A stretch of DNA of 64,000 nt from Candidatus Nanosyncoccus sp. (GCA_045589895.1 JAZNPY010000002.1:34546-98545), one strand, 5' to 3'; shown: positions 1 to 62,671, counted from the first letter of the stretch. The notes: a model not told the origin generated them from the letters alone. A program made the numbers and translations.

Positions 1-220
1 CGCGCGCGACGATACTATCGGGATGAGAAGTGCCAACAGTAATCATTTTTCTGACATCATTTAAATTGGCACGAGATATAATATCATCCGGCAAAAAATC
101 GGCTTTTTCATGAGGTATCTCTGGGTGGCGGCGCAGAAGTTTCTTCGAGATTTGCTGGCGATTAATCGCAAAATCGTAAGTTTCGCGATCGTGGATATGA
201 CAATGGGAATCTATTAGCAT
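1..220 (-). CDS. tatD: TatD family metallo-DNase, N-terminal part (runs off window start)
   Basis: Not in ORF track. Manual translation from ATG at 220: MLIDSHCHIHDRETYDF...VRKMITVGTS, with the TatD DxHxH start motif. TGC-TATAAT lies 6 nt upstream. Confidence 0.8.
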   Translation of the reverse strand, partial: MLIDSHCHIHDRETYDFAINRQQISKKLLRRHPEIPHEKADFLPDDIISRANLNDVRKMITVGTSHPDSIVAR

Positions 221-238
221 AGACTAATTATAGCACGA

Positions 239-2044
239 CTACTGGCGAGCTTCACGCTTGCGCTTAATCGGGTCGAGCTGGCGTTTCCTGAGCCTTAGGG
301 ATTTAGGTGTAACTTCGAGAAGTTCATCGTCAAGCAGAAAATCAAGACATTGTTCAAGGCTTAACTGAGTGTATGGGGTGAGCTGGATGGCGCCGTCACT
401 AGCATGAGTGCGCATATTTGTAAGCTGTTTTTCGCGACAGACGTTAATATCGAGATCGTCCTTTTTATTCGATAGACCGACGATCATACCTTGGTAAACT
501 GGAACCTGCGGCGGAATATAAAGCACGCCGCGAGCCTGAGCAGCATCTAGAGCATAGGCAGTCGAAACACCAGTTTCGAAGCTAATCAGAGCGCCGTTTC
601 GTTCGGGCTTATATTTACTATCAGCAGGTCGATAGCCATGAGGGATACTAGACATAATCACAGTACCCTTCGTGGCGGTAAGCAGATTATTGCGCAGACC
701 AATCAGGGCGGCAGTGGTGATTTCATAAGTGAAACGAGTAGTGTTCTGACTGGTTAATTCCTGGGATTTTAGCTCGGCTTTTCTGATACCCATTTCCTGA
801 CTGACGGCACCAACAAATTCGGAGTCGACTTCGATAGTTAAATCCTCGACTGGTTCGAGCTTCTGGCCGTTTTCTTCTTTGTAAACGACTTCTGGACGAC
901 CAGCTTCGAGTTCATAGCCCTCGCGGCGCATAGTTTCAATCAAGACGGAAAGATGAAGCTCGCCACGACCGGAAACTTTGTAGCCGAGACCGTCGGGCTG
1001 GATTTTTAAGGCGATATTCGTCTCGAGTTCTTTTTCTAGGCGCTCAGCAATTTGGCGAGAAGTAGTAAATTCGCCTTCCTTACCCTTGAGCGGGCTAGTG
1101 TTCGGGCCGATGTAAATAGATAAGGTTGGCGGCTCAAGCTCGATGGTTGGAAGAGCGGTCGGGTTTTCGCCGGTCGCAATAGTGTCGCCAATATTAGCGT
1201 CTTGGACACCGGTCAACGCAACAATGTCGCCAGCAATAACCTCGTCGGTTTCCTCTTTGCCAAGACCGCGGTAAGTAAAAATCTTATCAATTTTAGCTTG
1301 TTTGTTGTTTGGCAAAACTTTGACGGTTTCGCCTTTTTTGAGCTTGCCACGTGCGATTTTGCCGATAGCGTATTTGCCAAGATAATTATCAGCGGCAAGA
1401 GCGGCAACGAGAAGCTGGGCGCCCTTCTCGGCGTGTTCGTCGATTTTTGGGGCTGGAATATCGTTAATAATAGATTCAAAAATCACATGAAGGTCGTCAT
1501 CGAGATCTGTAGTTTTACCAGCTTTACCCTCGCGGGCAATAGCGTAATAAATTGGGTAGTTCAGCTGAGACTCGTCGGTTGCAAGTTCCAGGAAAAGACT
1601 TTCGATTTCGGATTTCACTTCTTCGATACGAGCAGCAGGCTTATCAATTTTATTTATTATTACAACAGGTTTTAGCTTCAAGTCAAGGGCTTTGCTCAGA
1701 ACGAACTTAGTCTGAGGCATCGGTCCTTCTTGAGCATCAACAATGAGTAGAACACCGTCAGCCATATTCAAAGTTCGTTCAACTTCGCCGGAAAAATCGG
1801 CGTGACCAGGGGTGTCAATAATATTAATCTTATAGTCGTCATAAAACACAGCGGTTTGCTTCGCGGTAATGGTAATTCCCCGCTCGTGTTCCTGATCCAT
1901 AGAGTCCATAATTAAAGTCTGAGACATTTCCGCTTGATTTTCGCGGAAAGTATGGGATTGCTTCAAAAGACCGTCGACGAGAGTAGTTTTACCGTGGTCG
2001 ACATGAGCAATAATAGCAACGTTTCGGATTCTGTCTTTGTTCAT
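239..2044 (-). CDS. typA: Translational GTPase TypA/BipA
   Basis: RNVAIIAHVDHGKTTLVD, ERGITI, DTPGHADF, NKID, GRGELHL and C-terminal LEQCLDFLLDDELLEVTP motifs; 601 aa. Confidence 0.98.
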   Translation of the reverse strand: MNKDRIRNVAIIAHVDHGKTTLVDGLLKQSHTFRENQAEMSQTLIMDSMDQEHERGITITAKQTAVFYDDYKINIIDTPGHADFSGEVERTLNMADGVLLIVDAQEGPMPQTKFVLSKALDLKLKPVVIINKIDKPAARIEEVKSEIESLFLELATDESQLNYPIYYAIAREGKAGKTTDLDDDLHVIFESIINDIPAPKIDEHAEKGAQLLVAALAADNYLGKYAIGKIARGKLKKGETVKVLPNNKQAKIDKIFTYRGLGKEETDEVIAGDIVALTGVQDANIGDTIATGENPTALPTIELEPPTLSIYIGPNTSPLKGKEGEFTTSRQIAERLEKELETNIALKIQPDGLGYKVSGRGELHLSVLIETMRREGYELEAGRPEVVYKEENGQKLEPVEDLTIEVDSEFVGAVSQEMGIRKAELKSQELTSQNTTRFTYEITTAALIGLRNNLLTATKGTVIMSSIPHGYRPADSKYKPERNGALISFETGVSTAYALDAAQARGVLYIPPQVPVYQGMIVGLSNKKDDLDINVCREKQLTNMRTHASDGAIQLTPYTQLSLEQCLDFLLDDELLEVTPKSLRLRKRQLDPIKRKREARQ

Positions 2045-2093
2045 AACTTAGCCATTATATCACAGATTACATATATAGTCAACAGGGGTGTTA

Positions 2094-2122
2094 TTGACAA
2101 AAAGAGAAATCTGTGGTATAAT
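2094..2122 (+). promoter_or_regulatory. Sigma70-type promoter upstream of tRNA-Lys
   Basis: TTGACA-N17-TATAAT. Confidence 0.75.
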
Positions 2123-2189
2123 TAGAGAATATTGTTTGAAATTAAGGGTTTTCAAAATATCCCCGATGTGTTATACTAGGTTAGACCGT

Positions 2190-9984: not shown

Positions 9985-11472
9985 TTAGTTGATTTTGTAA
10001 ATGCGGATTGCTAGGTCGTAGGCCTTGTTTTGCGGGGAGAAGGCTCTTATTTCTTCCCATTCTTCCCTGGTGTTAACCTCGCCCATAGGATTGCCGCATG
10101 CGTTGAATCTGGCGATGATATATGTCGGGCGATCTTGGAACTCTAGGATGGCCTCGTCTAGCTCATTGTCGTCGACGACCTTAGCTTCGGAGTCCCAAAT
10201 CATATAGTCGAACGGCTTTTTGTCTACTACGTCATAAATCATGCGACCGCCCTCCATAAAAGGAACGAAGCCAATAGCTTGCGTCAGGGTGTCATCGGAT
10301 CCAACTAAGATTACGGCGTTGTCCTCTAGCAAATTGAGGACGTCGGATACTTCTTTAGAGTAGCTATATTGGCTGTCTATATCGTAATAAGCTTCGGAAA
10401 TGGTGTGCGGTACAGAGAGGACAATCGGTACGAAGCAAAAAGTGCCGATTGGAACGTAGTAAGAAATGAGCTTATATAATTCAAGCTTGCCAGTTAGACG
10501 GTCCAAGATGCTGCGTTTTAGACGCTTCTCTGATTTGGTAAGCCAGATGGCTAAGATGATTAGAAGGATAAACATGGCTGGCTTATGTGGCATAATCGTG
10601 GTGTTATAAGTGATGAAGAGTACCGAGAAATAAAAGCCGAAGCCGAAAAGTGAGTAGACGAAAATCTTTGGGTAGCGTGCGAAGAGGTAAATCATGATAA
10701 ATAGGAGACTGAGCTCGGTAATCGGCATAGCTAGACCGAACAGGACCAGATTGAAAGATTGCATGTATTCTGTCAGGCTCATACGGTACTGACCGTTTAA
10801 TGAAGGAGTGATGATTTGGTGGCTGTGGAGGGTGGTGAATACTGCCGGTAGCAAGAGCGCGAGAGCGCCGACGAGAATGAATGCTGGGATAATCATCTGG
10901 GTGAATTTCTTTGCTTTGATGCATTCGACGAAGAAACCAATCGAGAGTAGGGCGACAAATCCGCCGGCTAGTATGTGAGACTGGGAGAGTAAGGCGAGTG
11001 AAAGAATATAACGTATCGGATGTTCGTGACGCCCGGCATAGGTCAGTCCGACTAGGACAACGCCGAGGGCGATGAAGCTATAGTCGCGCGCGAAGACTGA
11101 GTTATAGTAGAAGAAGCCGGCCGATAGGATGATGACGATTTTTTGCCACCATTTGAATGGCGATTTCCAGAGTAGGAGGAATACAGCCAGAGAGACTATC
11201 GCTAAAGATAGGAAGTTTGTAGTGATGAAGGGTAAGCCAGCTTGGGCAAACGGAGCGAGAAAGAGAGGGTAAAGCGGGGAGTGCGGCTCATATTTTGTAA
11301 CCTCGAAAAGGTTCTCGAAGTTGATAATCTTGGCTATTTGCCAAGGATTAGCCTCATCGCACCATGGTTCATGACGGAAAATTAGAAAAACACCAATCGC
11401 CGCAAAGATAATTGTTGTAGCTACTGCAAGCCAAAAATTGGCTTTTTTGTTATCCTTCACTCTACCTCGCAT
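9985..11472 (-). CDS. GT-C fold (PMT/ArnT-like) polytopic membrane glycosyltransferase
   Basis: HEPWCDEANPW and YEPHSPLY in the first loop, ARDYS motif, more than 10 TM segments, soluble C-terminal domain. Confidence 0.75.
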   Translation of the reverse strand: MRGRVKDNKKANFWLAVATTIIFAAIGVFLIFRHEPWCDEANPWQIAKIINFENLFEVTKYEPHSPLYPLFLAPFAQAGLPFITTNFLSLAIVSLAVFLLLWKSPFKWWQKIVIILSAGFFYYNSVFARDYSFIALGVVLVGLTYAGRHEHPIRYILSLALLSQSHILAGGFVALLSIGFFVECIKAKKFTQMIIPAFILVGALALLLPAVFTTLHSHQIITPSLNGQYRMSLTEYMQSFNLVLFGLAMPITELSLLFIMIYLFARYPKIFVYSLFGFGFYFSVLFITYNTTIMPHKPAMFILLIILAIWLTKSEKRLKRSILDRLTGKLELYKLISYYVPIGTFCFVPIVLSVPHTISEAYYDIDSQYSYSKEVSDVLNLLEDNAVILVGSDDTLTQAIGFVPFMEGGRMIYDVVDKKPFDYMIWDSEAKVVDDNELDEAILEFQDRPTYIIARFNACGNPMGEVNTREEWEEIRAFSPQNKAYDLAIRIYKIN

Positions 11473-11498
11473 ATATTATATATTGTAGCACAAAAAGC

Positions 11499-13458: not shown

Positions 13459-13827
13459 CTATCTACTAGTATAAGGCGTAATCCAAAAATTTACAACCCC
13501 ATTTACGACACTCATGACTAGAGAGCTAAGGATGGCGCCAGCGAAGTTCATACCGACATTAGGGGTCAGCCAGATAGCAAGGGTAACCATGGCGGTATTG
13601 ATAATCAAAGTGAAAAGACCCATGGTAAAAATAATTAGCGGTAGAGTTAATGTAGTGGCGAGTGGACGGACGAAAGAGTTGACCAGGGAGAAGAATAGGC
13701 CGGCGAGAATAAAATCGAGTGGATTAGGCTGACCGGAAACTACGCCAAAAAAAGTAATACTGAGCCACATACCAAGCGTGGATAATGCCCAACGAGCAAC
13801 AAAACTAATCGTCCATTTTTTAAACAT
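13459..13827 (-). CDS. Phage-holin-like (YvlD-type) 4-TM membrane protein
   Basis: LVNSFVRPL..LTLPLIIFTMGLFTLIIN motif. Confidence 0.85.
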   Translation of the reverse strand: MFKKWTISFVARWALSTLGMWLSITFFGVVSGQPNPLDFILAGLFFSLVNSFVRPLATTLTLPLIIFTMGLFTLIINTAMVTLAIWLTPNVGMNFAGAILSSLVMSVVNGVVNFWITPYTSR

Positions 13828-13832
13828 ATGGA

Positions 13833-15107
13833 TTATTTTAGCATTTTTTTATTGCGGAGTAAACGGTGATAAGTAACAGCAAAGCGATGAGCCTCCTCGT
13901 CGATGCGTGCAATAAGGCGGGAAATATGATCGTCCGATCTAAGGTGAACAGTACGATACTGACCGTTCTTTTCTGGAACAATAATTTTTACCTCGGCATT
14001 TTTGGCGTGGTCGCCAGATTTATCGCGGCCGATAATTGGTATATTATCAGGGACTATGTCTTTCACCGCTTCAAGTTGAAGTTTGCCGCCATCAAGCACG
14101 ATGAGGTCTGGGTATGTCCATTCTTGATGTTTTAGACGACGCTCTAAGATTTCGCGTAGGTTGGCTAGGTCGTCATTTTTTTGGCGATGGAGCTTGAATT
14201 TTCGATATTCGGCACGGTCTGAGGCGCCATTAACAAAAACTACCATGCTACCGACGACGTCGGTTCCGTGGATATGTGAAATGTCGTAGCCCTCGATGCG
14301 TTTTGGGGGTTGTTTTAGGTCAAGCAAAACTTGGAGTTGGACTAATGCACGGTCAGAGGAAATATCGAGAAACTCTTTATCTGAGAAAACGATTTTCTTT
14401 TTTAGGCCTTTAAGCCCAAAAAGTTGATCGCGAATCCGAGCGGCCTCTTCAAAGTTGCCAATTTTTGCCTCCTCTTTCATGGTTTTTTCGAGATTTTTCA
14501 TAAGGGCGGCACGGTTCCCCTCTAGATAGGAAATTAGGCGCCGGAGTGATTTTTTGTAATCTTCTGATGTCATTTTGCCAATTTCGATACCGGGCGTTAA
14601 ACCGAGATCGGTGTTTAGGGTCTTTTTGCCGGTATACGGGCGATCATAGTATGGGAAAATTCTCCTCAAAATTCGGAGGGCAGACGAGATAGTATTTTTG
14701 GCGTAAAACGGACCAATATATTTCGCGCCATCGTCTAACGGAGTACGAGTAACTGAGACATACGGAACCTCTGATTTTAGGTCGATACGGACGTAGCTGA
14801 CATTTTTATCATCACGGAGTAAAATATTCCATTTCGGTTTGTAACGCTTGATCATCTCGTTTTCGAGAAAGAGGGCGTCCATCTCGGTATCGACTACTGT
14901 CCAATCAGTGTCGGCGATTTCTTCGACTAGGGCTGCAGTTTTCGGGTCTTTTTCAGTGTTTTGGAAATACTGACGAACGCGATTTTTTAAGACTGCGGCT
15001 TTGCCAACGTAAATAATCTTGCCGTTTTTATCCTTATGGAAATAAACCCCTGGACTGCTAGGTAAGGTTTTCAACTTCTCTCGTAATTTTTCGGATTTGT
15101 CGACCAT
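13833..15107 (-). CDS. uvrC: Excinuclease ABC subunit C
   Basis: GIY-YIG domain ([21 protein letters not shown]), [20 protein letters not shown]. Start moved to ATG 15107. Confidence 0.95.
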
Positions 15108-15149
15108 TTTTATTATTATAGCATCTTCTCTTGTGATATAATAATGCTT

Positions 15150-16466
15150 ATGGATAGTCTTATAATTTCGGATATTAAAGCACGGCAAATTTTGGATAGT
15201 CGTGGTAACCCTACGGTGGAGGCGGATGTATTTCTATCGTCTGGCCACGTAGGAAGAGCAGCAGTGCCATCTGGTGCTTCGACTGGTGCAGGCGAGGCAC
15301 TAGAACTGCGAGATGGCGACAAACATTATTATGATGGTAAAAGTGTGCTAAAGGCTGTATGGAACATTAATAATAAAATTCGAGACGTACTAGTCGAAAA
15401 TACCGCAGAACAAAAAACGGTGGATCAACTACTATTGGAGCTTGATGGAACTGAGAATAAATCTAGTCTCGGGGCAAATGCGATTTTGGCTGTGTCGCTA
15501 GCAACAGCAAAAGCAGTAGCAAAAGCGCGCCATATACATTTTTATGAATATATAGCGGAGCTGGCTGGGACAACGGAGCAGATGTCGCTGCCGATGCCGA
15601 TGATGAATGTGATGAATGGCGGCGCACACGCCGATTGGTCAACTGATTTTCAGGAATACATGATTATGCCGCTCGGGGCGGGAACGATGGACGAAGCAGT
15701 AAGGATGGGGGCCGATGTATTCCATACACTAAAGGAAGTACTAAAGGAGCGCGGCTACGCCACAACGGTAGGTGACGAAGGTGGTTATGCGCCACAGCTA
15801 CGTGACGGAGATAACGAACCGCTAGAATGTATTAAGCTGGCGATAGAGCGGGCAAAATATAAGCTTGGGGTCGATTTCTTTATTGCGATGGATATTGCGG
15901 CCTCGGAATTTTACCATGACGACCATTACGAATTAAAGACAAACGGCGACTGGAAGTGGTCTAACAATTTAATTGATTGGTATACCTGGATTCTAGATAA
16001 TTATCCGGTGGCCTCGATTGAGGATGGTCTGTCGGAAAATGATTGGGCGGGATGGAAAGATATGACTGAGAGGCTTAGCGGGCGCACGCAGCTAGTGGGC
16101 GACGACTTATTCGTAACAAATACTAAGCTCTTGAAGCGTGGGATTGATGAACATGTTGGCAATGCGATTTTGATTAAACCAAACCAGATTGGGACACTTT
16201 CGGAGACAATCGATGCGGTACTAATGGCAAAAGCGGCCGGATACAAAACTGTGATTTCACACCGCTCTGGAGAGACCGAAGACACTTCGATTGCACATCT
16301 GGCAGTCGGATTAGGTGCCGGACAGATAAAGACCGGATCGATGTCGAGATCGGAGCGTATCGCGAAGTATAATGAACTAATGCGCATCGAGGAAGGTAAC
16401 TCGAAACTACATTTTGATTTTAATTTGATTGACGATTTGCGTCATTTAAAGTTTGAACGAAATTAG
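15150..16466 (+). CDS. eno: Enolase
   Basis: [48 protein letters not shown]. Start likely the second ATG at 15150. Confidence 0.98.
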
Positions 16467-20605: not shown

Positions 20606-21166
20606 TTAGAATTTTACTTCGGGAGCCTTGTCAATGCGCTGCTTTTCGGCTTCGTCGACCTCATAGTAATCACGCTTCTTAAAGCCAAAACCGTTGAACA
20701 AATTAATTGGGAAGAGCTTAATCTTAGTATTAATTTCCTTAGCGCCAGCATTATAAAAACGACGGGCAGCAACAATCTTATCCTCAGTATCGGAAAGCTC
20801 GGTCATGAGCTGCTGGAAATTCTTATCAGCCTTAAGCTCTGGATAGGCTTCGGTGACGGCCATAATACGAGAGAGCGCACCCATAAAGGAATTATCAGCC
20901 TCAGCGGTAGCCTTAACTGTGCGGGCACCCATCATCTTTGCGCGGGCTTCGGAAACAGCCTTGATCGCTTCGGTTTCATGTTTCGCGTAACCCTTAACCG
21001 TCTCTAGAAGATTCGGAATCAAATCGGCACGGCGCTTGAGCTGAACCGTAATGTCAGACCAGGCTTCGTTCACACGCTCGTCGAGCTTAACTAAACTATT
21101 ATACGTGCCCCAGATGTAGATAACTACAAGTAGGACAACTACTAAAATCACAATTCCAATGACCAT
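20606..21166 (-). CDS. lemA: LemA family protein
   Basis: EAWSDITVQLKRRADLIPNL, EAYPELKAD, ARRFYN. Confidence 0.97.
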   Translation of the reverse strand: MVIGIVILVVVLLVVIYIWGTYNSLVKLDERVNEAWSDITVQLKRRADLIPNLLETVKGYAKHETEAIKAVSEARAKMMGARTVKATAEADNSFMGALSRIMAVTEAYPELKADKNFQQLMTELSDTEDKIVAARRFYNAGAKEINTKIKLFPINLFNGFGFKKRDYYEVDEAEKQRIDKAPEVKF

Positions 21167-22155: not shown

Positions 22156-22241
22156 CAGTTTTATTATAGCAAATTGAGGGGGAAAGTGGGGGAAAAGATG
22201 GCTAGATTTAAAAAATCGCACGTAACGTGCGAATTCTGGTT

Positions 22242-37497: not shown

Positions 37498-37506
37498 ATC
37501 TTTATT

Positions 37507-39219: not shown

Positions 39220-39258
39220 ATTCTTATTTTAGCACAGGAAAAATTTTATGAAAAATGA

Positions 39259-40041: not shown

Positions 40042-40055
40042 GGTTTTATTATAGC

Positions 40056-42496: not shown

Positions 42497-42531
42497 AAGA
42501 TTATTATAGCATATTCTGGTATAATAATTAC

Positions 42532-43956: not shown

Positions 43957-45762
43957 CTAGGCCTTGAGTGCATCGGTATTGGCGATTAGGCGCTCTTTGA
44001 AAGCGACACGAGCTTTGTCTACATTCTCATTATCACCTTTCCAGGCAAAAAGTGCTGGATCTTGAAGTGCGCGGGCAAACGAGAAAGTAACTGGCCATGG
44101 GAAGGGACCGTTTCTAAGGATCGCACGAAGGTTTTCAGTGGCCTGCTCGACGGTTTGACCGCCAGATAGGAAAACTACGCCAGCCAGAGTTTCTGGCACA
44201 TGCGCCCTGAGAATATCTGCAGTAGCACGACCGACTTCTTCGGTAGTACTTTGGATTGGGTATTGCTTACCAGCAAGAATCATATTACATTTTAAGATGC
44301 AGCCGTCCAGTCTGACATTGGCCTTCGAAAGTTCATCAAAGAGTGCATCGAGAACTTTGCTAGTAACATCAGCGCATTGTTCAATAGTGTAATTACCATC
44401 ATAAACAACTTCCGGTTCGACGATTGGAACAATATTAGCTTGCTGACAAGCTTTAGCGTACTTAGCTAAGATCTCGGCATTCTTGGTAATAGCCATCTCG
44501 CTAGGGGTATCATTCGTGACTTCAAAAGCAGCGCGCCACTTTGCAAAACGCAATCCCTGCTGATAATAATCATCTAGGCGTTTAGCTAGGCCATCTAGCC
44601 CTTCAGTGTATTTTTCATTAGAATCGGCAAAATTTACTAGACCCTGATCAACTTTGACACCAGGTATAATGCCATGAGCAGTGAGATAGGCGACAAAATC
44701 ACGACCATCGTCGGACATTTGTCTAGTGGTCTCGTCAAATAAGATTACACCGTTGATATAACGTTCGAGTTCAGGAGTACCGATAAAGATATTACGGTAA
44801 TCGCGGCGATGCGGTTCGTCGTCTGGGATATTAAGCTGCTCGAATTTTTTATGGATAGAACCGCCAGATTCATCAGCGGCAAGAATACCCTTGCCCGCCG
44901 TCATCAGCTGAGCGGCGACTAGGTTAATGTCGGCTTCTACGTCGTCGTAGTTTTTGGCTAGATTTTCGAGCTTTTCGAGTGAAATTGTACCAGAAAGCGA
45001 GGAATTTTCAACGTTGAGCTTGGCTAGTTTCAGGGCCTCGCGAACAGATTTGCCGTAAAGTAAATAACTAAAGACTGAGGCAGCAATAATAGAATGCGTG
45101 GTGGAACGAGTCATGAGATCGGTACGTTCAACTCGCCAATTTTGAGTAACTTCTCCGAGAACAATCTCGCTATCAGAAATTTCACAGACGGAACCAGGGC
45201 GCTTAATGTCGTGGCCGAGTTTGCCATCTACAAAGAGCATGCTGGCAATATCAAGAAGTGGCTTTTCGGCTTCAGTGAGATTCTCGGAAACATAGGCAGC
45301 CACACGAGTATGTGAAGACATAGAAAGGAAATTTTTGATTTCTCTAACTAGGTCCGGGGTAACGCCGGCAGAATGGTCAACGTAAATCCAGTCGATTGCT
45401 TCGCTAGGGTTTGCCCAGACAGTATCTTCACGATCGTTAGACGTGAGATAGGCGATTTTATTACCGCGGCAAAGAATATAGCGATAGCCAGCAGCAATCT
45501 GGTCGTTCGGAACGACTTCACCACCAACGAAACCAAGACGGGCACCAGCGATATGGGCATCATGACCAAAACGGTTCATAACTTCGAGAGCAACCGCTGC
45601 ACCGCCATAGATAGAAGAGCGGCGAAAGAAATTGTAGTTACTGCCATTAAAAGCGAAATCTAGCCAAGGAGTTCCCTGCTCGTCGATTTCAAAATTGTTT
45701 AGTCTCTCGTCCAACCGAAGGTAGACGTCTTTAAAGATATTCCCAACTATAAGCACATTCAT
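43957..45762 (-). CDS. Fusion: degenerate PfkB-like domain plus class I fructose-bisphosphate aldolase
   Basis: C-terminal about 330 aa: KGILAADES, GVKVD, AKWR, IVPIVEPE, ILKCNM, FLSGGQ, FSFARAL. N-terminal about 270 aa resembles the ribokinase fold. Confidence 0.88.
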   Translation of the reverse strand: MNVLIVGNIFKDVYLRLDERLNNFEIDEQGTPWLDFAFNGSNYNFFRRSSIYGGAAVALEVMNRFGHDAHIAGARLGFVGGEVVPNDQIAAGYRYILCRGNKIAYLTSNDREDTVWANPSEAIDWIYVDHSAGVTPDLVREIKNFLSMSSHTRVAAYVSENLTEAEKPLLDIASMLFVDGKLGHDIKRPGSVCEISDSEIVLGEVTQNWRVERTDLMTRSTTHSIIAASVFSYLLYGKSVREALKLAKLNVENSSLSGTISLEKLENLAKNYDDVEADINLVAAQLMTAGKGILAADESGGSIHKKFEQLNIPDDEPHRRDYRNIFIGTPELERYINGVILFDETTRQMSDDGRDFVAYLTAHGIIPGVKVDQGLVNFADSNEKYTEGLDGLAKRLDDYYQQGLRFAKWRAAFEVTNDTPSEMAITKNAEILAKYAKACQQANIVPIVEPEVVYDGNYTIEQCADVTSKVLDALFDELSKANVRLDGCILKCNMILAGKQYPIQSTTEEVGRATADILRAHVPETLAGVVFLSGGQTVEQATENLRAILRNGPFPWPVTFSFARALQDPALFAWKGDNENVDKARVAFKERLIANTDALKA

Positions 45763-45787
45763 GCTTTGATTATACCATAGTCTGTAT

Positions 45788-56455: not shown

Positions 56456-57194
56456 GACTGCCAGGGCGCTTGAGGTATTTTAAGACAAAACTAATTGCAA
56501 AAAGACCAGCAATAAGAGCAACCAGATTCGATGCCGCAAGCGTCGCAAAATTGGCAAAGAGATACTCACGTGCAGATGAGCTAATAAGTGTCTTTAGGCA
56601 AACAGCGGTCATGAGAGGGATTGAAACCAGAAAGGAATAATCGGCGGCAGACTCGGAATCTAGCCCAGCAATACGGCCAGCGACGATGGTGGAGCCAGAG
56701 CGCGAAACACCAGGAATGAGCGCTAAAGTCTGAGCGAGACCAATACCAAGAGCGCGAGACTTAGTCAGTTCGTTTTCGTTTTTGAGTTTCGAAAAATGTG
56801 GAAGCTTGTCCGCAATTATCATCAAAAAGCCGATAATACCCATAGCGATAGCAATAGTCGTGAGTGATGAGAAAAATGAAGCATTTTCAATAAGGTCGCC
56901 GAGGAGTAGTCCAGCGAGTCCTGCTGGGATACAAGTGATAATGATATTGATTGCGAGTTTAAAATTCCGCTTTTTAAATATGTCCGCTAAGATTGCGACG
57001 ATTTTTTGACGATAATAAGTAATCAATGCGAGAAGGGTACCAAAATTAATCAGCTCGAGAAAGTAGTGAAAGTCGTCGGGACGAGTGCTGCTTAGGATAT
57101 GCTGGATAATTTCAAGATGTCCAGAGGAAGATACTGGAATAAATTCGGTAAGGCCCTGAACGAGGCCAAGAATAATAGCAATAAATAAACTCAT
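56388..57194 (-). CDS. uppP: Undecaprenyl-diphosphate phosphatase
   Basis: GLVQGLTEFIPVSSSGH, PGVSRSG. Confidence 0.96.
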   Translation of the reverse strand: MSLFIAIILGLVQGLTEFIPVSSSGHLEIIQHILSSTRPDDFHYFLELINFGTLLALITYYRQKIVAILADIFKKRNFKLAINIIITCIPAGLAGLLLGDLIENASFFSSLTTIAIAMGIIGFLMIIADKLPHFSKLKNENELTKSRALGIGLAQTLALIPGVSRSGSTIVAGRIAGLDSESAADYSFLVSIPLMTAVCLKTLISSSAREYLFANFATLAASNLVALIAGLFAISFVLKYLKRPGSLRTFGYYRLVLAGIVLVFQLLL

Positions 57195-57212
57195 GGTTTA
57201 ATTATAACACGG

Positions 57213-57914: not shown

Positions 57915-57990
57915 TTTAGCTCCTTAGTTATTGTTGAAATACTTACATTTATTATAACATAATTCTAGGTTTTGTGATATAATTATAGAT

Positions 57991-58098: not shown

Positions 58099-58815
58099 TT
58101 ATTTTGTTTTACAGTTATTCGTTAAGACTTCCTGCATTTTATCTTTTTCGGCTTGTCTAACCGATAGGTTGTAAAAATTTTTAATTTCTATCTGCTGAAT
58201 TATATATTTACACCAATATTCTGTATTTTCTGGTAGCCAATCGGCAGCATCTTTACTACCTTTGCTTCGATTTGCAGAATCGGAAGTAGCTATTAAAACT
58301 CTGTCTTCATCATTAACGTAACTTATCCAAGTTTCTTGGTTCCATAAATACCCACCGCTATCCCAAGCGTTTTTCTTGGCAACAATGTGGTCTATGTCAA
58401 TTCCATCTTTAAGGGAAATAGTTTTTCCGGTATAGTAGTCAAAGAGTTCGCCGGATTGAATCTCGCAACTATCATTTATCATATTTTCTAAAGAATTTAG
58501 TAAAATATCAGAACGAGTTTTACAACCACTATTATTTATGTTAGTCCAATCAGTAGGAACATTGCCGTTGGAATTGTATTTTATAGGTGCATTGTCAGTT
58601 GTTCTAACTTTTAGAATAGTAAGAGTATTTTTAGCTTTGTGCAACCCATAATAGGTAACCGTATAAATTGAACCTGGCGGACTAACAATCTCGTTGTAGA
58701 CATAACCAGTGCCACCCGCTACGACGGCTAGACCAATCGTACCAGCAACGATTTTTGTTTTGCCATTTGTGGTTGATTTGACTTTACTGCTAGCGTTGGT
58801 TTTTTTGGTTGCCAT
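58099..58815 (-). CDS. Membrane-anchored HNH nuclease (DUF1524 / GmrSD C-terminal-like)
   Basis: N-terminal TM; CKTRSDIL, IDIDHIV..NAWDSG, SANRSKG..DAADWLP, CKY. Start likely ATG 58815. Confidence 0.85.
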   Translation of the reverse strand: MATKKTNASSKVKSTTNGKTKIVAGTIGLAVVAGGTGYVYNEIVSPPGSIYTVTYYGLHKAKNTLTILKVRTTDNAPIKYNSNGNVPTDWTNINNSGCKTRSDILLNSLENMINDSCEIQSGELFDYYTGKTISLKDGIDIDHIVAKKNAWDSGGYLWNQETWISYVNDEDRVLIATSDSANRSKGSKDAADWLPENTEYWCKYIIQQIEIKNFYNLSVRQAEKDKMQEVLTNNCKTK

Positions 58816-58862
58816 AACCATATTATAGCACAGTTAGGATGAAAGATCTTATGCCTTAACAG

Positions 58863-58928: not shown

Positions 58929-60344
58929 GATATATTTTGTTCCGGGGCCAACACCAATAACCGAAATAAGCTTATTGTTAACGAGTTCATTTAATTCTCT
59001 TCTCGCGCGACGGTCGTCATTTCGTTCATTCATATGATTTATTTCACAATATTGTTTATTAGAAATTGACCCGGTATTTTTTATATATACTAACGCGTTT
59101 TTCTGAGTATCTTTGAGATGAAATTTCTTGGAGATATTTTCAATCCAAAGCCTATCACCACTAGTGTGCGGGGAAGAGAAGAACAAAGTCGCTTTAAAAC
59201 ATCCAGATATATTTTCAAATTTAGGGGCAAGAAGACCGCGGTTCCTGGCGGCTTGATAAATAGTAGGAATACCACGAGCGGTTTTGTCGGTAATATTGCA
59301 AACTTTCAAAAATTCCATTAGATTAGGATTTCTTGATTTTGATGAGGCTTTTTCTAGGTCTTTTATGGCAACCAGACTTTCGCCAGGATTAGATAGCTCA
59401 ATTCTATCTGAGAAGAGATCAATATTTATGCAAGAGCTTTGGATTAGATAGTCTCTGTGAGCTATAGCATTGGCAAGAGCTTCGCGAATTGCTTCTTCTG
59501 GAATTATATATCTGTTTTCTCGTAGTCCAGTGCTACTATTTAGCACCGCCTCAATAGGTAATTTCGTTTTGATATATTCAAAGGCAAGTAAAAACTGAGT
59601 TTTGACATCGCCGTGAAATTCTTTTCTATCTAAGTATATCACCTCTGGGTTATCTGGCAAGGCTTTACTTGTTCCTGGAAAGACTCTAAAGTCAATGTAG
59701 ACATTATTTAGTTTTTCGTCGATCTTTTCTGGCTTCCCAAACGCAATGAGACCGAATATAGTTAAGCCTTGATCATTCTGAGCTTTAATTTTAAATAATT
59801 TAGCTTTAGTATCTTTAATGCCTACTGAATTTAGACCAGTTTTTGAGATATATTCATCGACTTTTGTTTCGTCTATTAATTCTATTGTGCTACCAGTTAC
59901 TGGCTGGTTTTCTCCACCACCAGCCGCTCCAGCAAATAGACTACGCATTTCTTCATCTGAGGCTCGTACGTTGGTAGAACCTTGGCGTATCCAAATTTGT
60001 TTTGGTCCAATTTTTTTACTATATATAGGCTTATTATAAAATTCTGATTCCGCAATCAACACCTCGATATAACCATTATGTGTACACATGGTTACTTTAG
60101 GCTTATTATTAAAAAAATTATTAGATAGCAGCGTGGATAAATCCTTCTGAAGTTTATCCATGTCAGTGGTAGGAAGATTTAATATGGATCCATCGTCCTC
60201 AATGCCAAGGAAAATTCTACCGCCATGAGAATTGGCGAAGGCTGCAATACTCTGCCACAGATCACTCGGTAATTTTGCTTTTTTCACGCCGCGACAGTCC
60301 TTAAACTCTACCTGTTCACTTTCATTAAGATTAAATTTCTTCAT
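58887..60344 (-). CDS. Schlafen/AlbA_2 domain + HATPase_c_4-like + wHTH protein (RecG C-terminal-like family)
   Basis: EQVEFK..AAFANSHGGRIFLGIEDDG; REALANAIAHRDY, SNPG, SRNPNL; C-terminal wHTH ending GPGTKY. Confidence 0.88.
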   Translation of the reverse strand: MKKFNLNESEQVEFKDCRGVKKAKLPSDLWQSIAAFANSHGGRIFLGIEDDGSILNLPTTDMDKLQKDLSTLLSNNFFNNKPKVTMCTHNGYIEVLIAESEFYNKPIYSKKIGPKQIWIRQGSTNVRASDEEMRSLFAGAAGGGENQPVTGSTIELIDETKVDEYISKTGLNSVGIKDTKAKLFKIKAQNDQGLTIFGLIAFGKPEKIDEKLNNVYIDFRVFPGTSKALPDNPEVIYLDRKEFHGDVKTQFLLAFEYIKTKLPIEAVLNSSTGLRENRYIIPEEAIREALANAIAHRDYLIQSSCINIDLFSDRIELSNPGESLVAIKDLEKASSKSRNPNLMEFLKVCNITDKTARGIPTIYQAARNRGLLAPKFENISGCFKATLFFSSPHTSGDRLWIENISKKFHLKDTQKNALVYIKNTGSISNKQYCEINHMNERNDDRRARRELNELVNNKLISVIGVGPGTKYILSGHYPDKTTPVE

Positions 60345-60411
60345 GGTGTAATTTTAGCATGTTTTTCGGGGGGTTTTCAAGATGAGAGCGTTATGATATA
60401 ATTGGTGAAGT

Positions 60412-60488: not shown

Positions 60489-60515
60489 TTTTTTATTTTG
60501 TGATATAATTAGATT

Positions 60516-60908
60516 ATGAGAAAAAGCAAAACTGGTTTTACGATTTTGGAACTTGTAATAGTGATTATGTTTGCATCGCTAGCGGTAGTATTATTCTTTG
60601 TGCAGAAAGCAAATGTCGATGCGATGGATCGCGACGACGATAGGAAAACCGCCATAAACGCTATGTATTATGCATTAGAGGAAGGTTTCTATACCGAGAA
60701 TGGCTATTATCCAGAAACGATTTCAGAGAAGAATTTAACTGTAATTGACCCAGCACTGTTTACAGACCCGTCCGGAATTAATCTTGGCGAAGAAGGGTGT
60801 TCTTATACTTATGATCCAGCGAACTGCGAAGATGGAAAGTGTAAGGAATATGTCCTGCGGGCAACGCTGGAAAAAGAAGAAGTCTACGTAAAGAAAAACC
60901 GAAGCTAA
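60516..60908 (+). CDS. Type IV pilin / pseudopilin-like protein
   Basis: Class III signal MRKSKTG|FTILELVIVI; C-terminal Cys pairs. Confidence 0.88.
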   Translation: MRKSKTGFTILELVIVIMFASLAVVLFFVQKANVDAMDRDDDRKTAINAMYYALEEGFYTENGYYPETISEKNLTVIDPALFTDPSGINLGEEGCSYTYDPANCEDGKCKEYVLRATLEKEEVYVKKNRS

Positions 60909-60911
60909 AAA

Positions 60912-61496
60912 CTATTTTTTCTTATTTTCCTTAGCAACATGAACTAGATGCGTGATAGCGTCTAGTTCTTTTTTCGGGATAGCGGCATATTTAAAAGTAT
61001 ACGTCGTTTCCTCGCCGACAGTAGATAGACGAATCGTGCCGATATGAAAGATATGGTCGATAAGGCCAACTTGGCGGTAGCTCACATCCTCAATGGAGGA
61101 AAGATCGATAACATTGGTCGAGCGTGAAAATAGCGAGAGTGCCTGATAATGGAAGAGGCGGTTGTTCGATACGACAAGGCGGTTGCTGCGATAGACATAC
61201 TGCGCAATAAAGGCTGCCATAACACTTACGCCAAGCAAAATGAAGATGATCAAATAGAGATATGCAACAGCGGTAGAATTCAGACCAAGTGTAGCCGAAG
61301 TATTAGCATCGGTCCACATCAAAGTAAGACATAGCGAGAGTATAAAAATCGCCAAAAATGCTAATCCCCAAATCAAGGTTAAACCAATCGGTGCACGATG
61401 AATATCAAATTCAACATATTCCCCCTCTTCAAGGTTCAAGCCAGGAAAATCTTTCTGGCTGCGGGCGTGATGAAGTTTTATCAAATCTTCTTTCAT
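60912..61496 (-). CDS. Bacterial PH-domain membrane protein
   Basis: Two TM helices followed by IDLSSIEDVSYRQ.G...IFHIGTI. Confidence 0.8.
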   Translation of the reverse strand: MKEDLIKLHHARSQKDFPGLNLEEGEYVEFDIHRAPIGLTLIWGLAFLAIFILSLCLTLMWTDANTSATLGLNSTAVAYLYLIIFILLGVSVMAAFIAQYVYRSNRLVVSNNRLFHYQALSLFSRSTNVIDLSSIEDVSYRQVGLIDHIFHIGTIRLSTVGEETTYTFKYAAIPKKELDAITHLVHVAKENKKK

Positions 61497-61561
61497 AGCC
61501 TACTCCTGCTTTTTCTAATTATATCACAAGTTGCAAAAAAAGAAAATGGTATCGTCTTAAA

Positions 61562-62596
61562 TTATTGAGATATCTGCTTGGTCTTTTCGAGATGTCTTTC
61601 GGCTTTTTTGGTGACGCGACGGCCGCGCGGAGTGCGTTCGATGAGGCCAAGTTGGAGAAGGTATGGCTCATAATAATCCTCAACGGTCGAAGCTTCGTCT
61701 CCAGTAAGGGCGGCAATAGTAGTAAGACCAACTGGGCGGTCGCCGTAATTTTCAAGCATGAGGCTCAGCATATTACGGTCGGCCGGATCAAGACCAAGAT
61801 CGTCGATTTCCATAAGGGCGAGAGATTTTTCGGCAATTTTTTGATCGATGATGCCGTCACCATTGACATCGGCATAGTCACGGACTCTTCTAACCAGGCG
61901 ATTGGCGATGCGTGGAGTGCGACGAGAGCGTGTGGCGAGGAGGTTGACTGCTTCGGGTTGAATTTTGGTATCAAGAATCGAAGATGTGCGCTCGATGATT
62001 TTTTCGATCTCGTTTTCACGATAGTACTCAAGACGATGAAGCATACCAAAACGATCACGAAGCGGACCAGCCAATGAGCCGGTTCTAGTCGTAGCACCAA
62101 TAACCGTAAAATGCGGAAGGTCAAGTCGAACACTGCGGGCGGCAGGACCTTTACCAATAACGATATCGAGTTTATAGTCTTCCATCGCAGAGTATAAGAC
62201 CTCTTCAACGGCACGGCGCAAACGATGAATTTCGTCGATAAAAAGTACATCGCCTTCTTGGAGATTGGTAAGAATACTAGCAAGATCGCCAGCACGTTCG
62301 ATTGCTGGGCCAGAGGTAACTCTTAAGTTTGCGCCAAGTTCATGAGCAATGACGTTAGCCATAGTAGTCTTACCGAGACCGGGAGGGCCATATAATAAAA
62401 TATGGTCGAGGGCGGCAGTTTTATCGTCTTTTAATCTACGTTTTTTAACAGCATCAATAGCGAGCTTGAGGTTGCTTTTCATACGTTCCTGACCAATGTA
62501 GTCCTCAAAATTCAGCGGCCTAAGGGATTTCTCGATAATTTCCTCTGTTTGGTCGTCTTCATGAATCGTAGTATCAATAACACGCTCAATTCCCAT
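61562..62596 (-). CDS. ruvB: Holliday junction DNA helicase RuvB
   Basis: LRP..FEDYIGQ, GPPGLGKTT, FIDEIHR, GATTR, RTPRGR. Confidence 0.98.
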   Translation of the reverse strand: MGIERVIDTTIHEDDQTEEIIEKSLRPLNFEDYIGQERMKSNLKLAIDAVKKRRLKDDKTAALDHILLYGPPGLGKTTMANVIAHELGANLRVTSGPAIERAGDLASILTNLQEGDVLFIDEIHRLRRAVEEVLYSAMEDYKLDIVIGKGPAARSVRLDLPHFTVIGATTRTGSLAGPLRDRFGMLHRLEYYRENEIEKIIERTSSILDTKIQPEAVNLLATRSRRTPRIANRLVRRVRDYADVNGDGIIDQKIAEKSLALMEIDDLGLDPADRNMLSLMLENYGDRPVGLTTIAALTGDEASTVEDYYEPYLLQLGLIERTPRGRRVTKKAERHLEKTKQISQ

Positions 62597-62671
62597 TTGT
62601 CTTATTATAGCTTAGCTTGATAATTTTGTCCAAGATGCTTGGGAGTGTTGATGAGGAGGTAATTTTTATGC

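What the first reader, a model, noticed from the sequence alone, without database searches (positions are those of the whole stretch)
1..62609. Pervasive leaderless gene architecture: -10 hexamer 6-7 nt before the start codon
At least 23 genes have TATAAT/TAAAAT/TACAAT/TATACT exactly 6-7 nt upstream of the start codon, with no SD. Starts: 220, 11472, 13827, 15107, 15150, 22155, 25449 (GTG), 26583, 26913, 30055, 31565, 34533, 37497, 39219, 40041, 42496, 42532, 45762, 57194, 58815, 60344, 60516, 62596. Nineteen of these have the extended TGn-10. That spacing puts the expected transcription start on the first base of the start codon. A second class (surface proteins, lemA, trxA, ppa, rplY, nusA, the sORF) has a real 5' UTR and SD, suggesting two translation-initiation regimes. 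The pattern also corrects several starts in the ORF track. Leaderless mRNAs are established in Actinobacteria and Deinococcus; their dominance in this lineage is inferred here.
Basis: partly seen in the sequence, partly recalled or inferred. Interest (0 to 1): 0.65.

Follow-up and report, generated by a model that had tools for sequence, protein, structure and literature searches.

The report
Leaderless gene starts in a Saccharibacteria genome
In this tiny-genome Saccharibacteria (TM7) bacterium, about a quarter of all genes and nearly half of clear operon-first genes have a strong promoter box exactly 6-7 bases before the ATG, so their mRNAs very probably begin at the start codon; the mechanism is known from Actinobacteria, and I found no description of it for this lineage.

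Summary
All 23 listed starts carry TAnAnT upstream: 22 at 6-7 nt and one (11472) at 9 nt.

In the 692-kb genome, 102 of 459 TGnTAnAAT sites have an ATG opening an ORF of at least 60 aa exactly 6 nt downstream, against 0-5 at other offsets. By gene, 177 of 644 genes (27%) are of this type (about 13-14 expected by chance), as are 73 of 164 divergent first genes.

Features I did not select on support a transcription start on the A of ATG:
- Position -1 is a pyrimidine in 93% of cases.
- The start codon is almost always ATG.
- The -35 element is nearly absent.
- The spacing is kept in 20 of 20 orthologous loci whose upstream sequence has otherwise diverged.
- The same motif precedes 38 of 45 tRNA genes, so it is a promoter and not a ribosome-binding site.

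The 16S anti-SD is intact, and operon-internal and leadered genes use SD. The two-regime reading therefore holds.

The trait is not specific to this genus. A degenerate-motif analysis finds it in three other Saccharimonadales genomes and in one unrelated Patescibacteria genome. This genus has one of the sharpest consensus motifs. The architecture matches GeneMarkS-2 "group C".

The parts
218..235 (-). Extended -10 + 6-nt spacer + ATG (start 220): TGCTATAAT-TAGTCT-ATG
11470..11490 (-). TGCTACAAT + 9 nt + ATG (start 11472); near-leaderless (predicted 2-4 nt leader), not 6-7 nt as claimed
13825..13843 (-). TGCTAAAAT + 7 nt + ATG (start 13827; holin-like, PF04020). The promoter lies inside the 3' end of the upstream uvrC gene (5-nt gap).
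15105..15123 (-). TGCTATAAT + 7 nt + ATG (start 15107; UvrC). Corrects the longest-ORF TTG at 15188.
15134..15152 (+). TGATATAAT + 7 nt + ATG (start 15150; enolase). Divergent partner of 15107, with only 42 nt between the two ATGs.
22153..22171 (-). TGCTATAAT + 7 nt + ATG (start 22155; metallophosphoesterase). Corrects TTG 22275.
25447..25464 (-). TATAAT + 6 nt + GTG (start 25449; ABC ATPase). No TGn; the only GTG case. ABC_tran domain starts at residue 19, which fits this start.
26581..26599 (-). TGCTATAAT + 7 nt + ATG (start 26583; ZnuA-type binding protein). Corrects TTG 26700.
26898..26915 (+). TGTTATACT + 6 nt + ATG (start 26913; membrane protein, no Pfam hit)
30053..30070 (-). TGGTATAAT + 6 nt + ATG (start 30055; histidyl-tRNA synthetase)
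31550..31567 (+). TGTTATAAT + 6 nt + ATG (start 31565; MgsA/RarA-type AAA+ ATPase), preceded by a terminator-like hairpin and T-run. Corrects TTG 31472.
34531..34548 (-). TGATATAAT + 6 nt + ATG (start 34533; ABC exporter)
37495..37512 (-). TAAAAT + 6 nt + ATG (start 37497; class II aminoacyl-tRNA synthetase). No canonical TGn; 9 nt after the upstream stop.
39217..39234 (-). TGCTAAAAT + 6 nt + ATG (start 39219; histidine-kinase core)
40039..40056 (-). AGCTATAAT + 6 nt + ATG (start 40041; no Pfam hit); 14 nt after the upstream stop
42494..42511 (-). TGCTATAAT + 6 nt + ATG (start 42496; LPG_synthase_TM protein)
42517..42534 (+). TGGTATAAT + 6 nt + ATG (start 42532; methyltransferase). Divergent partner of 42496: 35 nt between the ATGs, essentially two back-to-back extended -10 boxes.
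45760..45777 (-). TGGTATAAT + 6 nt + ATG (start 45762; 601-aa protein used as the ortholog query). The spacing is conserved in 20 of 20 orthologous loci at 43-95% aa identity.
57192..57209 (-). TGTTATAAT + 6 nt + ATG (start 57194; UppP/BacA, domain starts at residue 6)
58813..58830 (-). TGCTATAAT + 6 nt + ATG (start 58815; GmrSD_C-domain protein). The longest-ORF ATG at 58821 directly abuts the -10 box and would lie upstream of the predicted TSS.
60342..60359 (-). TGCTAAAAT + 6 nt + ATG (start 60344; 485-aa protein)
60501..60518 (+). TGATATAAT + 6 nt + ATG (start 60516; 130-aa protein, no Pfam hit)
62594..62612 (-). AGCTATAAT + 7 nt + ATG (start 62596; RuvB)
57975..57983 (+). Same promoter motif (TGATATAAT) 7 nt before the mature 5' end of tRNA-Ser (57991-58076). 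Shows that the motif is a promoter, not a ribosome-binding element.
60394..60402 (+). TGATATAAT 9 nt before tRNA-Met (60412-60488)
22386..22394 (-). TGGTAAAAT 8 nt before tRNA-Cys (22304-22377)
23284..23292 (-). TGCTATAAT 11 nt before tRNA-Gly (23196-23272)
20606..21166 (-). Example of the second class: lemA with SD AAGGAG 5 nt before the ATG
30162..30473 (+). Second class: thioredoxin, GTG start, SD AAGGAG with 7-nt spacing
62754..63923 (+). Second class: nusA, SD AAGGA with 6-nt spacing

Best explanation
These are leaderless transcription units. Steps 1-2 rest on sequence evidence; steps 3-5 are inferred from known systems.

1. The genome has one full-length primary sigma-70-type factor. I infer that its holoenzyme recognises an extended -10 promoter (T-17 R-16 T-15 G-14 n TATAAT) that has almost no -35 element.
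2. Six (less often seven) bases separate the hexamer from the ATG, and -1 is a pyrimidine. RNA polymerase should therefore start on the A of the ATG.
3. The mRNA then begins 5'-AUG with no Shine-Dalgarno sequence. It would be translated by the leaderless route known from Actinobacteria, Deinococcus and E. coli cI (direct binding of the 5' AUG by a 70S ribosome, or by 30S with IF2 and fMet-tRNA).
4. Downstream cistrons of the same mRNAs, and a second set of leadered first genes, use ordinary SD pairing with the intact anti-SD of 16S rRNA.
5. The layout saves space. Promoters sit in the last codons of the upstream gene or back-to-back in divergent spacers of 29-45 nt. tRNA genes are built the same way, with the promoter a few bases from the mature 5' end.

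The architecture is shared across Saccharimonadales and at least one other Patescibacteria lineage. This genus has one of the sharpest consensus motifs.
For: **Spacing**
- Genome-wide spike at d=6/7 in an annotation-free test.
- 177 of 644 genes have the motif, against about 14 expected. Shuffles give 179 against 12.8 +/- 3.5.

**Signals not used in selecting the sites**
- -1 is a pyrimidine in 93%, against 48% for SD genes. TG at -15/-14 is present in about 80%. T-17 and R-16 are enriched. The -35 region is nearly information-free. Positions -6 to -4 are A-rich and C-poor.
- Start codons at d=6 after TATAAT are ATG:GTG:TTG = 106:5:1. SD genes give 226:29:14.

**Promoter rather than RBS**
- 38 of 45 tRNA genes have the same motif upstream. 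In 23 of them it lies 7-13 nt from the mature 5' end.

**Selection on the spacing**
- 20 of 20 orthologous loci keep TGnTAnAnT + 6-7 nt + ATG although the flanking sequence has diverged.
- Leaderless status of orthologs is 42% in the sister genus and 36% in another genus of the family. SD-class controls give 9% and 4%.

**Start positions**
- Pfam domain boundaries fit the leaderless starts.

**Dual regime**
- The anti-SD is intact.
- AGGAG peaks 5-8 nt before starts.
- Of the 201 genes lying within 15 nt of an upstream same-strand gene, 149 are SD-type.

**Compaction**
- 54 of 90 strict leaderless genes start within 40 nt of the upstream stop.
- 13 of 19 divergent leaderless pairs have 29-78 nt between the ATGs.

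**Published context**
- GeneMarkS-2 'group C' describes the same layout (PMC6028130).
- TSSs are centred 7 bp downstream of -10 elements (PMC12641261).
Against: - There is no RNA evidence.
- For the d=7 class, -1 is A in 31% of cases, so some transcripts may carry a 1-nt leader. A minor class at d=8-10 would have leaders of 1-4 nt.
- Transcripts reading through from upstream genes must also exist where there is no room for a terminator (gaps of 40 nt or less). How the ATG is used on those transcripts is unknown.
- My gene model is home-made: there is no Prodigal or GeneMark in the box, and only ORFs of 60 aa or more are called. The percentages are therefore estimates.
- The SD class was called permissively, taking the best match among several candidate starts.
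Confidence: 0.87

Rival explanations
1. The AT-rich motif 6-7 nt upstream is a non-Shine-Dalgarno ribosome-binding or translation-enhancer element on longer, leadered mRNAs (as in GeneMarkS-2 'group B' Bacteroidetes-type genomes), not a promoter.
For: The motif occupies the position where an RBS would sit. bS1 is present as a short four-domain form and could bind A/U-rich leaders.
Against: - The motif is the exact sigma-70 extended -10 consensus, including TRTG at -17 to -14.
- It precedes 38 of 45 tRNA genes, which are not translated.
- It is uncommon among genes that closely follow an upstream same-strand gene: 23 of 201 carry it, while 149 have SD-type matches. A group B motif is present before all genes (PMC6028130).
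- A -1 pyrimidine followed by A(+1) is a transcription-start signature, not a translational one.
- The anti-SD is intact, and SD motifs are used elsewhere in the genome.
Confidence: 0.03
2. The promoters are real, but transcription usually starts a few bases before the ATG or at variable positions. Most of these mRNAs would then have very short leaders (1-5 nt) rather than none. Translation would still be SD-independent, though not strictly 5'-AUG-dependent.
For: The d=7 class (39 genes) often has A at -1. There is a modest excess at d=8-10. In the one Saccharibacteria species with RNA-seq-derived TSSs (N. lyticus), the TSS-to-(-10) distance was reported as more variable than in other bacteria (PMC12641261). 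Site 11472 has d=9.
Against: The dominant class is d=6 with a Y(-1)/A(+1) dinucleotide (93% pyrimidine), which is the optimal geometry for starting on the A. The near-exclusive use of ATG argues for a 5'-terminal AUG requirement. The field in any case counts UTRs of 5 nt or less as leaderless.
Confidence: 0.08
3. The pattern is a by-product of a repeated, mobile promoter cassette, or of start-codon mis-annotation, and not a genome-wide expression design.
For: Earlier scan notes on other Saccharibacteria genomes describe portable promoter modules and cassette arrays. These are unchecked leads.
Against: - Upstream of -17 and in the 6-nt spacer there is essentially no sequence conservation among the 138 d=6 sites, so they are not copies of one repeat.
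- The genes are mostly unrelated core housekeeping genes: enolase, HisRS, RuvB, UvrC, UppP.
- The main test is annotation-free.
Confidence: 0.02

Closest known systems
GeneMarkS-2 'group C' genomes: leaderless transcription in Actinobacteria (Mycobacterium tuberculosis, Streptomyces, Corynebacterium) and Deinococcus-Thermus (Lomsadze et al. 2018, PMC6028130)
   Same: - A Pribnow box sits 6-8 nt before the start codon of first genes in operons.
- 25-50% of transcripts are leaderless. Here the figures are 27% of genes, 45% of divergent first genes and about half of consensus promoters.
- The remaining genes and internal cistrons use SD.
- The anti-SD is retained.
   Different: - The lineage is Patescibacteria/CPR (Saccharibacteria) with a 0.7-Mb genome. 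I found no description of the trait for this lineage in the searchable literature.
- The promoter is a near-perfect TG-extended -10 with almost no -35.
- The start codon is almost only ATG, whereas to my knowledge mycobacterial leaderless genes also use GTG often.
- Extreme compaction: promoters lie inside upstream genes, and divergent spacers are as short as 29-45 nt.
- tRNA genes follow the same promoter-abutting design.
Sigma-70 extended -10 (TGn) promoters, including the Gram-positive 'TRTG' -16 region
   Same: TRTGnTATAAT consensus with a weak or absent -35. The expected TSS is 7 nt downstream of the hexamer (PMC12641261).
   Different: Here this class appears to be the default promoter type of the genome. 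TGnTATAAT occurs 265 times against 42 for the reversed-pattern control, while other families of the order have 34-86 against 20-83.
Leaderless mRNAs of E. coli phage lambda cI and Tn1721 tetR (70S/IF2-dependent initiation on a 5'-terminal AUG)
   Same: The inferred translation mechanism: recognition of a 5'-terminal AUG without SD, and a strong preference for AUG (my own knowledge of that literature).
   Different: In E. coli these are rare exceptions. Here there are about 160-180 genes of this type. The mechanism was not tested here.

Membership tests
Leaderless 'group C' genome architecture (GeneMarkS-2 definition, PMC6028130) | Bacterial -10 (Pribnow) box localised about 6-8 nt upstream of start codons of first genes in operons | tested here: met
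   Spike at d=6 (102) and d=7 (29) of 459 TGnTAnAAT sites, with 0-5 at most other offsets. Logo. Shuffles.
Leaderless 'group C' genome architecture (GeneMarkS-2 definition, PMC6028130) | A substantial share of transcription units is affected (reported range 25-50% for group C) | tested here: met
   177 of 644 genes. 73 of 164 divergent first genes. 91 of 265 TGnTATAAT sites lie at d=6-7, 12 at d=8-11 and 81 are leadered.
Leaderless 'group C' genome architecture (GeneMarkS-2 definition, PMC6028130) | Other genes (internal cistrons, leadered first genes) carry an SD-type RBS | tested here: met
   16S 3' end reads GGAUUACCUCCUUUCU. AGGAG peaks 5-8 nt before starts. 149 of 201 genes lying within 15 nt of an upstream same-strand gene have SD-type matches. 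lemA, trxA, nusA and yebC in the window are examples.
Leaderless mRNA (experimental definition: primary 5' end at or within 5 nt of the start codon) | Mapped TSS coincides with the start codon | not testable with these tools
No TSS data for this genus were found in the literature searches.
Leaderless mRNA (experimental definition) | Strong bias to AUG as the 5'-terminal start codon | tested here: met
   ATG:GTG:TTG = 106:5:1 at d=6 after TATAAT, against 226:29:14 for SD genes.
Sigma-70 extended -10 promoter | TG at -15/-14, a consensus -10, a dispensable -35, and use before non-coding genes as well | tested here: met
   T-15 78%, G-14 80%; -35 information 0.25 bit or less per position. 38 of 45 tRNA genes are preceded by the motif. 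One full-length RpoD with regions 2-4 intact.
Non-SD RBS genomes ('group B', Bacteroidetes type) | The same upstream motif is present before all genes, including operon-internal ones, and is not a promoter | tested here: not met
   The motif is rare among closely following genes (23 of 201), precedes tRNAs, and equals the sigma-70 -10 consensus.

The most novel reading that the evidence does not exclude
'Zero-leader' transcription may be a general design principle of Saccharibacteria and several other Patescibacteria/CPR lineages, and not a quirk of one genus.
- Promoters abut the functional 5' end of both mRNAs (at the AUG) and tRNAs.
- Leaderless initiation would be the main route for first cistrons.
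- The layout is tied to genome streamlining, since promoters are embedded in upstream genes and divergent spacers are about 30 nt.
- Which genes are leaderless turns over quickly between families.

If CPR branch deeply in Bacteria, this would bear on whether leaderless initiation is ancestral.
Probability: 0.4. Interest if true: 0.65.

Novelty: new member of a known kind. Interest (0 to 1): 0.5.

Why it matters
- **Annotation:** gene callers that take the longest ORF or expect an SD will misplace starts in Saccharibacteria/CPR MAGs.
- **Genetics:** Saccharibacteria have recently become culturable and, to my knowledge, genetically tractable. Expression constructs should use a TRTGnTATAAT-N6-ATG module without an RBS for first genes.
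- **Evolution:** this adds a reduced-genome, host-dependent CPR lineage to the phyla with abundant leaderless genes. It also shows a link to intergenic compaction and a gene-by-gene turnover of leaderless status.
- **Regulation:** with no 5' UTR, these genes cannot be controlled by riboswitches, sRNA-SD pairing or leader structures. That narrows the regulatory repertoire expected in these organisms.

Tried and rejected
1. **'Genus-specific trait' (rejected).** Exact-pattern surveys suggested that only this genus has the spike (36-106 against 3-11; 151 genomes of the order). However, the consensus TGnTATAAT is itself rare in the other families. A degenerate-motif analysis on fetched sequence showed the d=6/7 spike in a sister genus, in another genus of the family, in another family and in an unrelated Patescibacteria genome. 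Within the family the strict count is a continuum, and genus g433 is equally extreme.

2. **Loss of ribosomal protein bS1 as a correlate (rejected).** A short bS1 of about 360 aa (four domains) is present in nearly all 41 genomes, inside and outside the genus.

3. **Loss of the anti-SD (rejected).** CCUCC is present.

4. **Loss of sigma-70 region 1.1 as the cause of the sharp, -35-less leaderless promoters (not supported).** Region 1.1 is absent from all 25 genomes of the genus and all 61 sampled genomes of the family, and present in 16 of 16 other families. But 15 of 16 high-scoring Patescibacteria genomes outside the family keep it, as do 15 of 16 low-scoring ones.

5. **Terminator-promoter-ATG cassettes as the general rule (minority).** Only 11 of 61 leaderless genes with room for it have a strict hairpin plus T-run upstream.

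7. **Literature.**
- The N. lyticus transcriptome paper (PMID 35975994) is not held.
- The GeneMarkS-2 supplementary genome lists are not held. I therefore could not check whether any Saccharibacteria genome was already listed as group C.

Full report
**1. What the window is**

The 64-kb window is C2:34546-98545 of a 692-kb, 15-contig genome with 44.5% GC and 96.9% estimated completeness. Orthologs of a window protein lie in MAGs titled 'Candidatus Saccharibacteria bacterium' and 'Candidatus Nanosyncoccus sp.' from goat, sheep and buffalo gut and other metagenomes. The organism is therefore a host-associated Saccharibacteria (TM7, Patescibacteria/CPR). The genus name is inferred from those neighbouring record titles only.

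**2. Checking the observation**

All 23 listed starts were read on both strands.
- 22 have a TAnAnT hexamer ending 6 nt (16 sites) or 7 nt (6 sites) before the start codon.
- At 11472 the TGn-extended TACAAT ends 9 nt before the ATG.
- 22 starts are ATG and 25449 is GTG.
- 19 of 23 have a pyrimidine at -1.

**3. Is it more than chance?**

Three tests agree.

(a) Annotation-free, motif-anchored test. Of 459 TGnTAnAAT sites on both strands of the genome, 102 have an ATG that opens an ORF of at least 60 aa exactly 6 nt downstream, and 29 have one at 7 nt. Most other offsets give 0-5, and there is a small excess at 8-10 nt (9, 20 and 12).

(b) Gene-anchored test. My own gene model has 644 genes covering 90.6% of the genome. 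In it, 177 genes have an early in-frame ATG with TAnAnT at d=6/7. In-frame ATGs in the second half of genes carry the motif at 0.7%, which predicts about 14 chance hits.

(c) Dinucleotide-preserving shuffles of the upstream 60 nt. The window has 25 against 1.5 +/- 1.1 (maximum 5 of 300). The genome has 179 against 12.8 +/- 3.5 (maximum 25).

**4. Anatomy**

The logo of the 138 d=6 genes reads T-17 (61%), R-16 (82%), T-15 (78%), G-14 (80%), n, then TATAAT.
- The -35 region is almost information-free. The best position is T at -35 (56%).
- The discriminator (-6 to -4) is A-rich and C-poor.
- Upstream of -17 and inside the spacer nothing is conserved, so these are not copies of one repeat.
- -1 is a pyrimidine in 93% of d=6 genes (T 66%, C 27%), against 48% before SD-led starts. 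A pyrimidine at -1 followed by a purine at +1 is the classical start-site dinucleotide.
- A 6-nt spacer puts the A of ATG at the 7th base after the hexamer, where TSSs are centred in mapped bacteria (PMC12641261).
- Start codon usage at d=6 after TATAAT is ATG:GTG:TTG = 106:5:1. SD-led genes give 226:29:14. This fits the known dependence of leaderless translation on a 5'-terminal AUG (my own knowledge of that literature).

**5. Promoter or ribosome-binding element?**

ARAGORN finds 45 tRNA genes. 38 of them have TGnTAnAnT within 120 nt upstream, and in 23 it lies only 7-13 nt from the mature 5' end. Nine of these tRNA genes are in the window. A motif that precedes untranslated genes with the same geometry is a promoter. 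It also shows that placing the promoter against the functional 5' end is a general habit of this genome.

The genome encodes one full-length RpoD with regions 2-4 intact. That fits the single, homogeneous promoter consensus.

**6. Evolutionary support**

The ortholog of window gene 43957-45762 was recovered in 20 loci at 43-95% protein identity. All 20 have TGnTAnAnT followed by 6-7 nt and the ATG, although the rest of the upstream sequence and the spacer itself have diverged.

Across genomes I asked how often the ortholog of a G000 gene also carries a leaderless-type motif:

| Genome | Relationship | Orthologs of leaderless genes | Orthologs of SD-class genes (control) |
|---|---|---|---|
| G428 | sister genus | 42% | 9% |
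| G170 | another genus of the family | 36% | 4% |
| G029 | another family | 15% | 5% |
| G351 | unrelated Patescibacteria | 17% | 27% |

The geometry is under selection. Which genes use it turns over with evolutionary distance.

**7. How pervasive is it, and is there a second regime?**

- Leaderless-type starts are 27% of genes.
- They are 73 of 164 (45%) unambiguous first genes, meaning members of divergent pairs.
- Of 265 TGnTATAAT sites, 91 lie at d=6-7 and 12 at d=8-11. A further 81 are intergenic with predicted leaders of 7-290 nt, 47 are other intergenic sites (tRNA and rRNA genes, small ORFs) and 34 are in coding sequence.

These values lie inside the 25-50% range that GeneMarkS-2 reports for bacterial 'group C' (PMC6028130). 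'Pervasive' is accurate; 'dominant' overstates it.

The 16S rRNA 3' end reads GGAUUACCUCCUUUCU, so the anti-SD is intact. AGGAG peaks 5-8 nt before ORF-opening start codons. 149 of the 201 genes that follow an upstream same-strand gene within 15 nt have SD-type matches. In the window, lemA, thioredoxin, nusA, yebC, uvrA and the RNase J gene belong to this class.

The leaderless set in the window is mostly core housekeeping: enolase, UvrC, HisRS, a second class II aaRS, RuvB, MgsA, UppP, ZnuA and two ABC proteins. It also includes a histidine-kinase core, a methyltransferase and a GmrSD_C-domain protein. Pfam domains begin at residues 6-25 of the proposed proteins. That supports the six start corrections (15107, 22155, 25449, 26583, 31565, 58815).

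**8. Compaction**

- Of 90 strict leaderless genes with a same-strand upstream neighbour, 54 start within 40 nt of the previous stop and 17 within 14 nt. The promoter then lies partly or wholly inside the upstream gene.
- Of 19 divergent pairs in which both genes are leaderless, 13 have 29-78 nt between the two ATGs. Two back-to-back extended -10 boxes with their spacers need about 30 nt. Window examples are 42496/42532 (35 nt) and 15107/15150 (42 nt).
- Divergent upstream gaps have a median of 109 nt for leaderless genes and 189 nt for SD genes.

**9. Phylogenetic scope, with a correction to my own first reading**

Exact-pattern surveys first suggested a genus-specific trait.
- TGNTATAAT-N6-ATG occurs 36-106 times in 24 of 24 same-genus genomes, against 3-11 in 16 other families of the order.
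- TATAAT-N6-ATG peaked only in this genus among 151 genomes of the order.
- It ranked highest in this genus among 401 genomes of the phylum.

However, the consensus TGnTATAAT is itself over-represented only in this genus: 143-384 per genome against 11-65 for the reversed control. Other families have 34-86 against 20-83. The exact patterns were therefore blind to weaker promoters.

On fetched sequence, the degenerate motif TGnTAnnnT followed by an ORF-opening ATG still spikes at d=6/7 against a background of 0-5 at most offsets:

| Genome | Relationship | Sites at d=6/7 | Sequence analysed |
|---|---|---|---|
| G000 | own | 145 | 692 kb |
| G428 | sister genus | 88 | 485 kb |
| G170 | same family | 39 | 334 kb |
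| G029 | another family | 30 | 398 kb |

An unrelated Patescibacteria genome (G351, 40% GC) shows TAnAAT at d=6 and d=7 in 38 and 18 cases, against a background of 2-4, in 282 kb.

Within the family the strict count is a continuum from 10 to 126 across 60 genera, and one other genus is equally extreme.

Conclusion: the leaderless architecture is order-wide and occurs elsewhere in CPR. This genus stands out for a near-perfect extended -10 and a strict 6-nt spacer.

Earlier notes of this scan on other Saccharibacteria genomes say much the same. I treat them as leads. The order-wide claim rests.

**10. Mechanistic correlates tested**

- bS1 is a short form of about 360 aa (four S1 domains) in nearly all 41 genomes. 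This agrees with the CPR-wide shortening reported in PMC9297842. It does not distinguish the genus.
- RpoD in this genus lacks an N-terminal block that other families keep. Pfam identifies that block as sigma-70 region 1.1 (PF03979: 37 bits in G029, none in G000).
- Six-frame searches show region 1.1 absent from 25 of 25 genus genomes and 61 of 61 family genomes (60 genera), and present in 16 of 16 other families.
- I tested whether this loss explains the sharp, -35-less leaderless promoters by comparing 16 high-scoring and 16 low-scoring Patescibacteria genomes outside the family. Both groups keep region 1.1 (15 of 16 each).
- There is therefore no general association. The loss stands as a separate family-level observation.

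**11. Comparison with what is known, and novelty**

The architecture meets every sequence-level criterion of GeneMarkS-2 'group C' (Actinobacteria, Deinococcus-Thermus; PMC6028130) and of extended -10 promoters. The experimental criterion, a mapped TSS on the start codon, could not be tested.

Full-text searches for 'leaderless' with Saccharibacteria, Patescibacteria or candidate phyla radiation, and for Saccharibacteria with Shine-Dalgarno, returned no paper describing this. That library is incomplete, the GeneMarkS-2 genome lists were not available, and the N. lyticus transcriptome paper was not held.

I classify the finding as a new member of a known kind. Three features distinguish it:
- a near-consensus TG-extended, -35-less promoter as the default type;
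- near-exclusive use of ATG;
- strong coupling to intergenic compaction, with the same design at tRNA genes.

**12. Verdict**

Confidence that these are genuine leaderless or near-leaderless transcription units is 0.87. What is missing is RNA 5'-end data.

Noticed in passing
Outside the window: G000 contig C3:63884-64603 (-), rpoD; compared with L104-L107: The primary sigma factor lacks region 1.1 (PF03979). Region 1.1 is absent from 25 of 25 genomes of this genus and 61 of 61 genomes (60 genera) of the family. It is present in 16 of 16 other Saccharimonadales families and in 30 of 32 other Patescibacteria genomes. No link to leaderless abundance was found in an independent comparison. The functional consequence is unknown.
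   Followed up: partly
Genome-wide; in the window e.g. 57975-57983 (tRNA-Ser), 60394-60402 (tRNA-Met), 22386-22394 (tRNA-Cys), 23284-23292 (tRNA-Gly): In 23 of 45 tRNA genes the extended -10 box lies only 7-13 nt from the mature 5' end. The primary tRNA transcripts would then have 5' leaders of roughly 0-6 nt, leaving very little for RNase P to remove.
   Followed up: partly
window 42494-42534 and 15105-15152: Minimal divergent intergenic regions: 35 and 42 nt between two ATGs, made of little more than two back-to-back extended -10 promoters. Genome-wide, 13 of 19 such pairs have 29-78 nt.
   Followed up: yes
window 13825-13843, 37495-37512, 40039-40056, 57192-57209, 218-235: Leaderless promoters embedded in, or directly abutting, the 3' end of the upstream same-strand gene (gaps of 5-18 nt). 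There is no room for a terminator, so read-through transcripts must carry these ATGs internally without an SD.
   Followed up: no
window 52928-54688 (-), aspS: The AspRS start has TATAAT 8 nt upstream (…TGTAATATAATTTATAGAT|ATG). It likely belongs to the minor d=8-10 near-leaderless class. My classifier left it as 'none'.
   Followed up: no
window 31520-31567, 45777-45810, 26599-26625: Compact terminator-like hairpin + T-run + extended -10 + ATG modules, for example GAGACCTTGTCTC-TTTTTT-CATGTTATAAT. Genome-wide, 11 of 61 leaderless genes with room for it have such a module, with the T-run beginning 21-45 nt before the ATG.
   Followed up: partly
Outside the window: G000 C13:7032-8057 (+): Ribosomal protein bS1 is a short form of about 360 aa matching only positions 6-343 of the 516-position rpsA model (four S1 domains). 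The same form occurs across the order. This is consistent with PMC9297842.
   Followed up: partly
Phylum survey: G540 and G351 (f157), G478 (f190), G384 (f82), G276 and G490 (f135), G421 and G448 (f176): Several unrelated Patescibacteria families have 50-96 TATAAT-N6-ATG sites, against 6-18 for the reversed control. Only G351 was examined, and there the d=6/7 spike was confirmed.
   Followed up: partly
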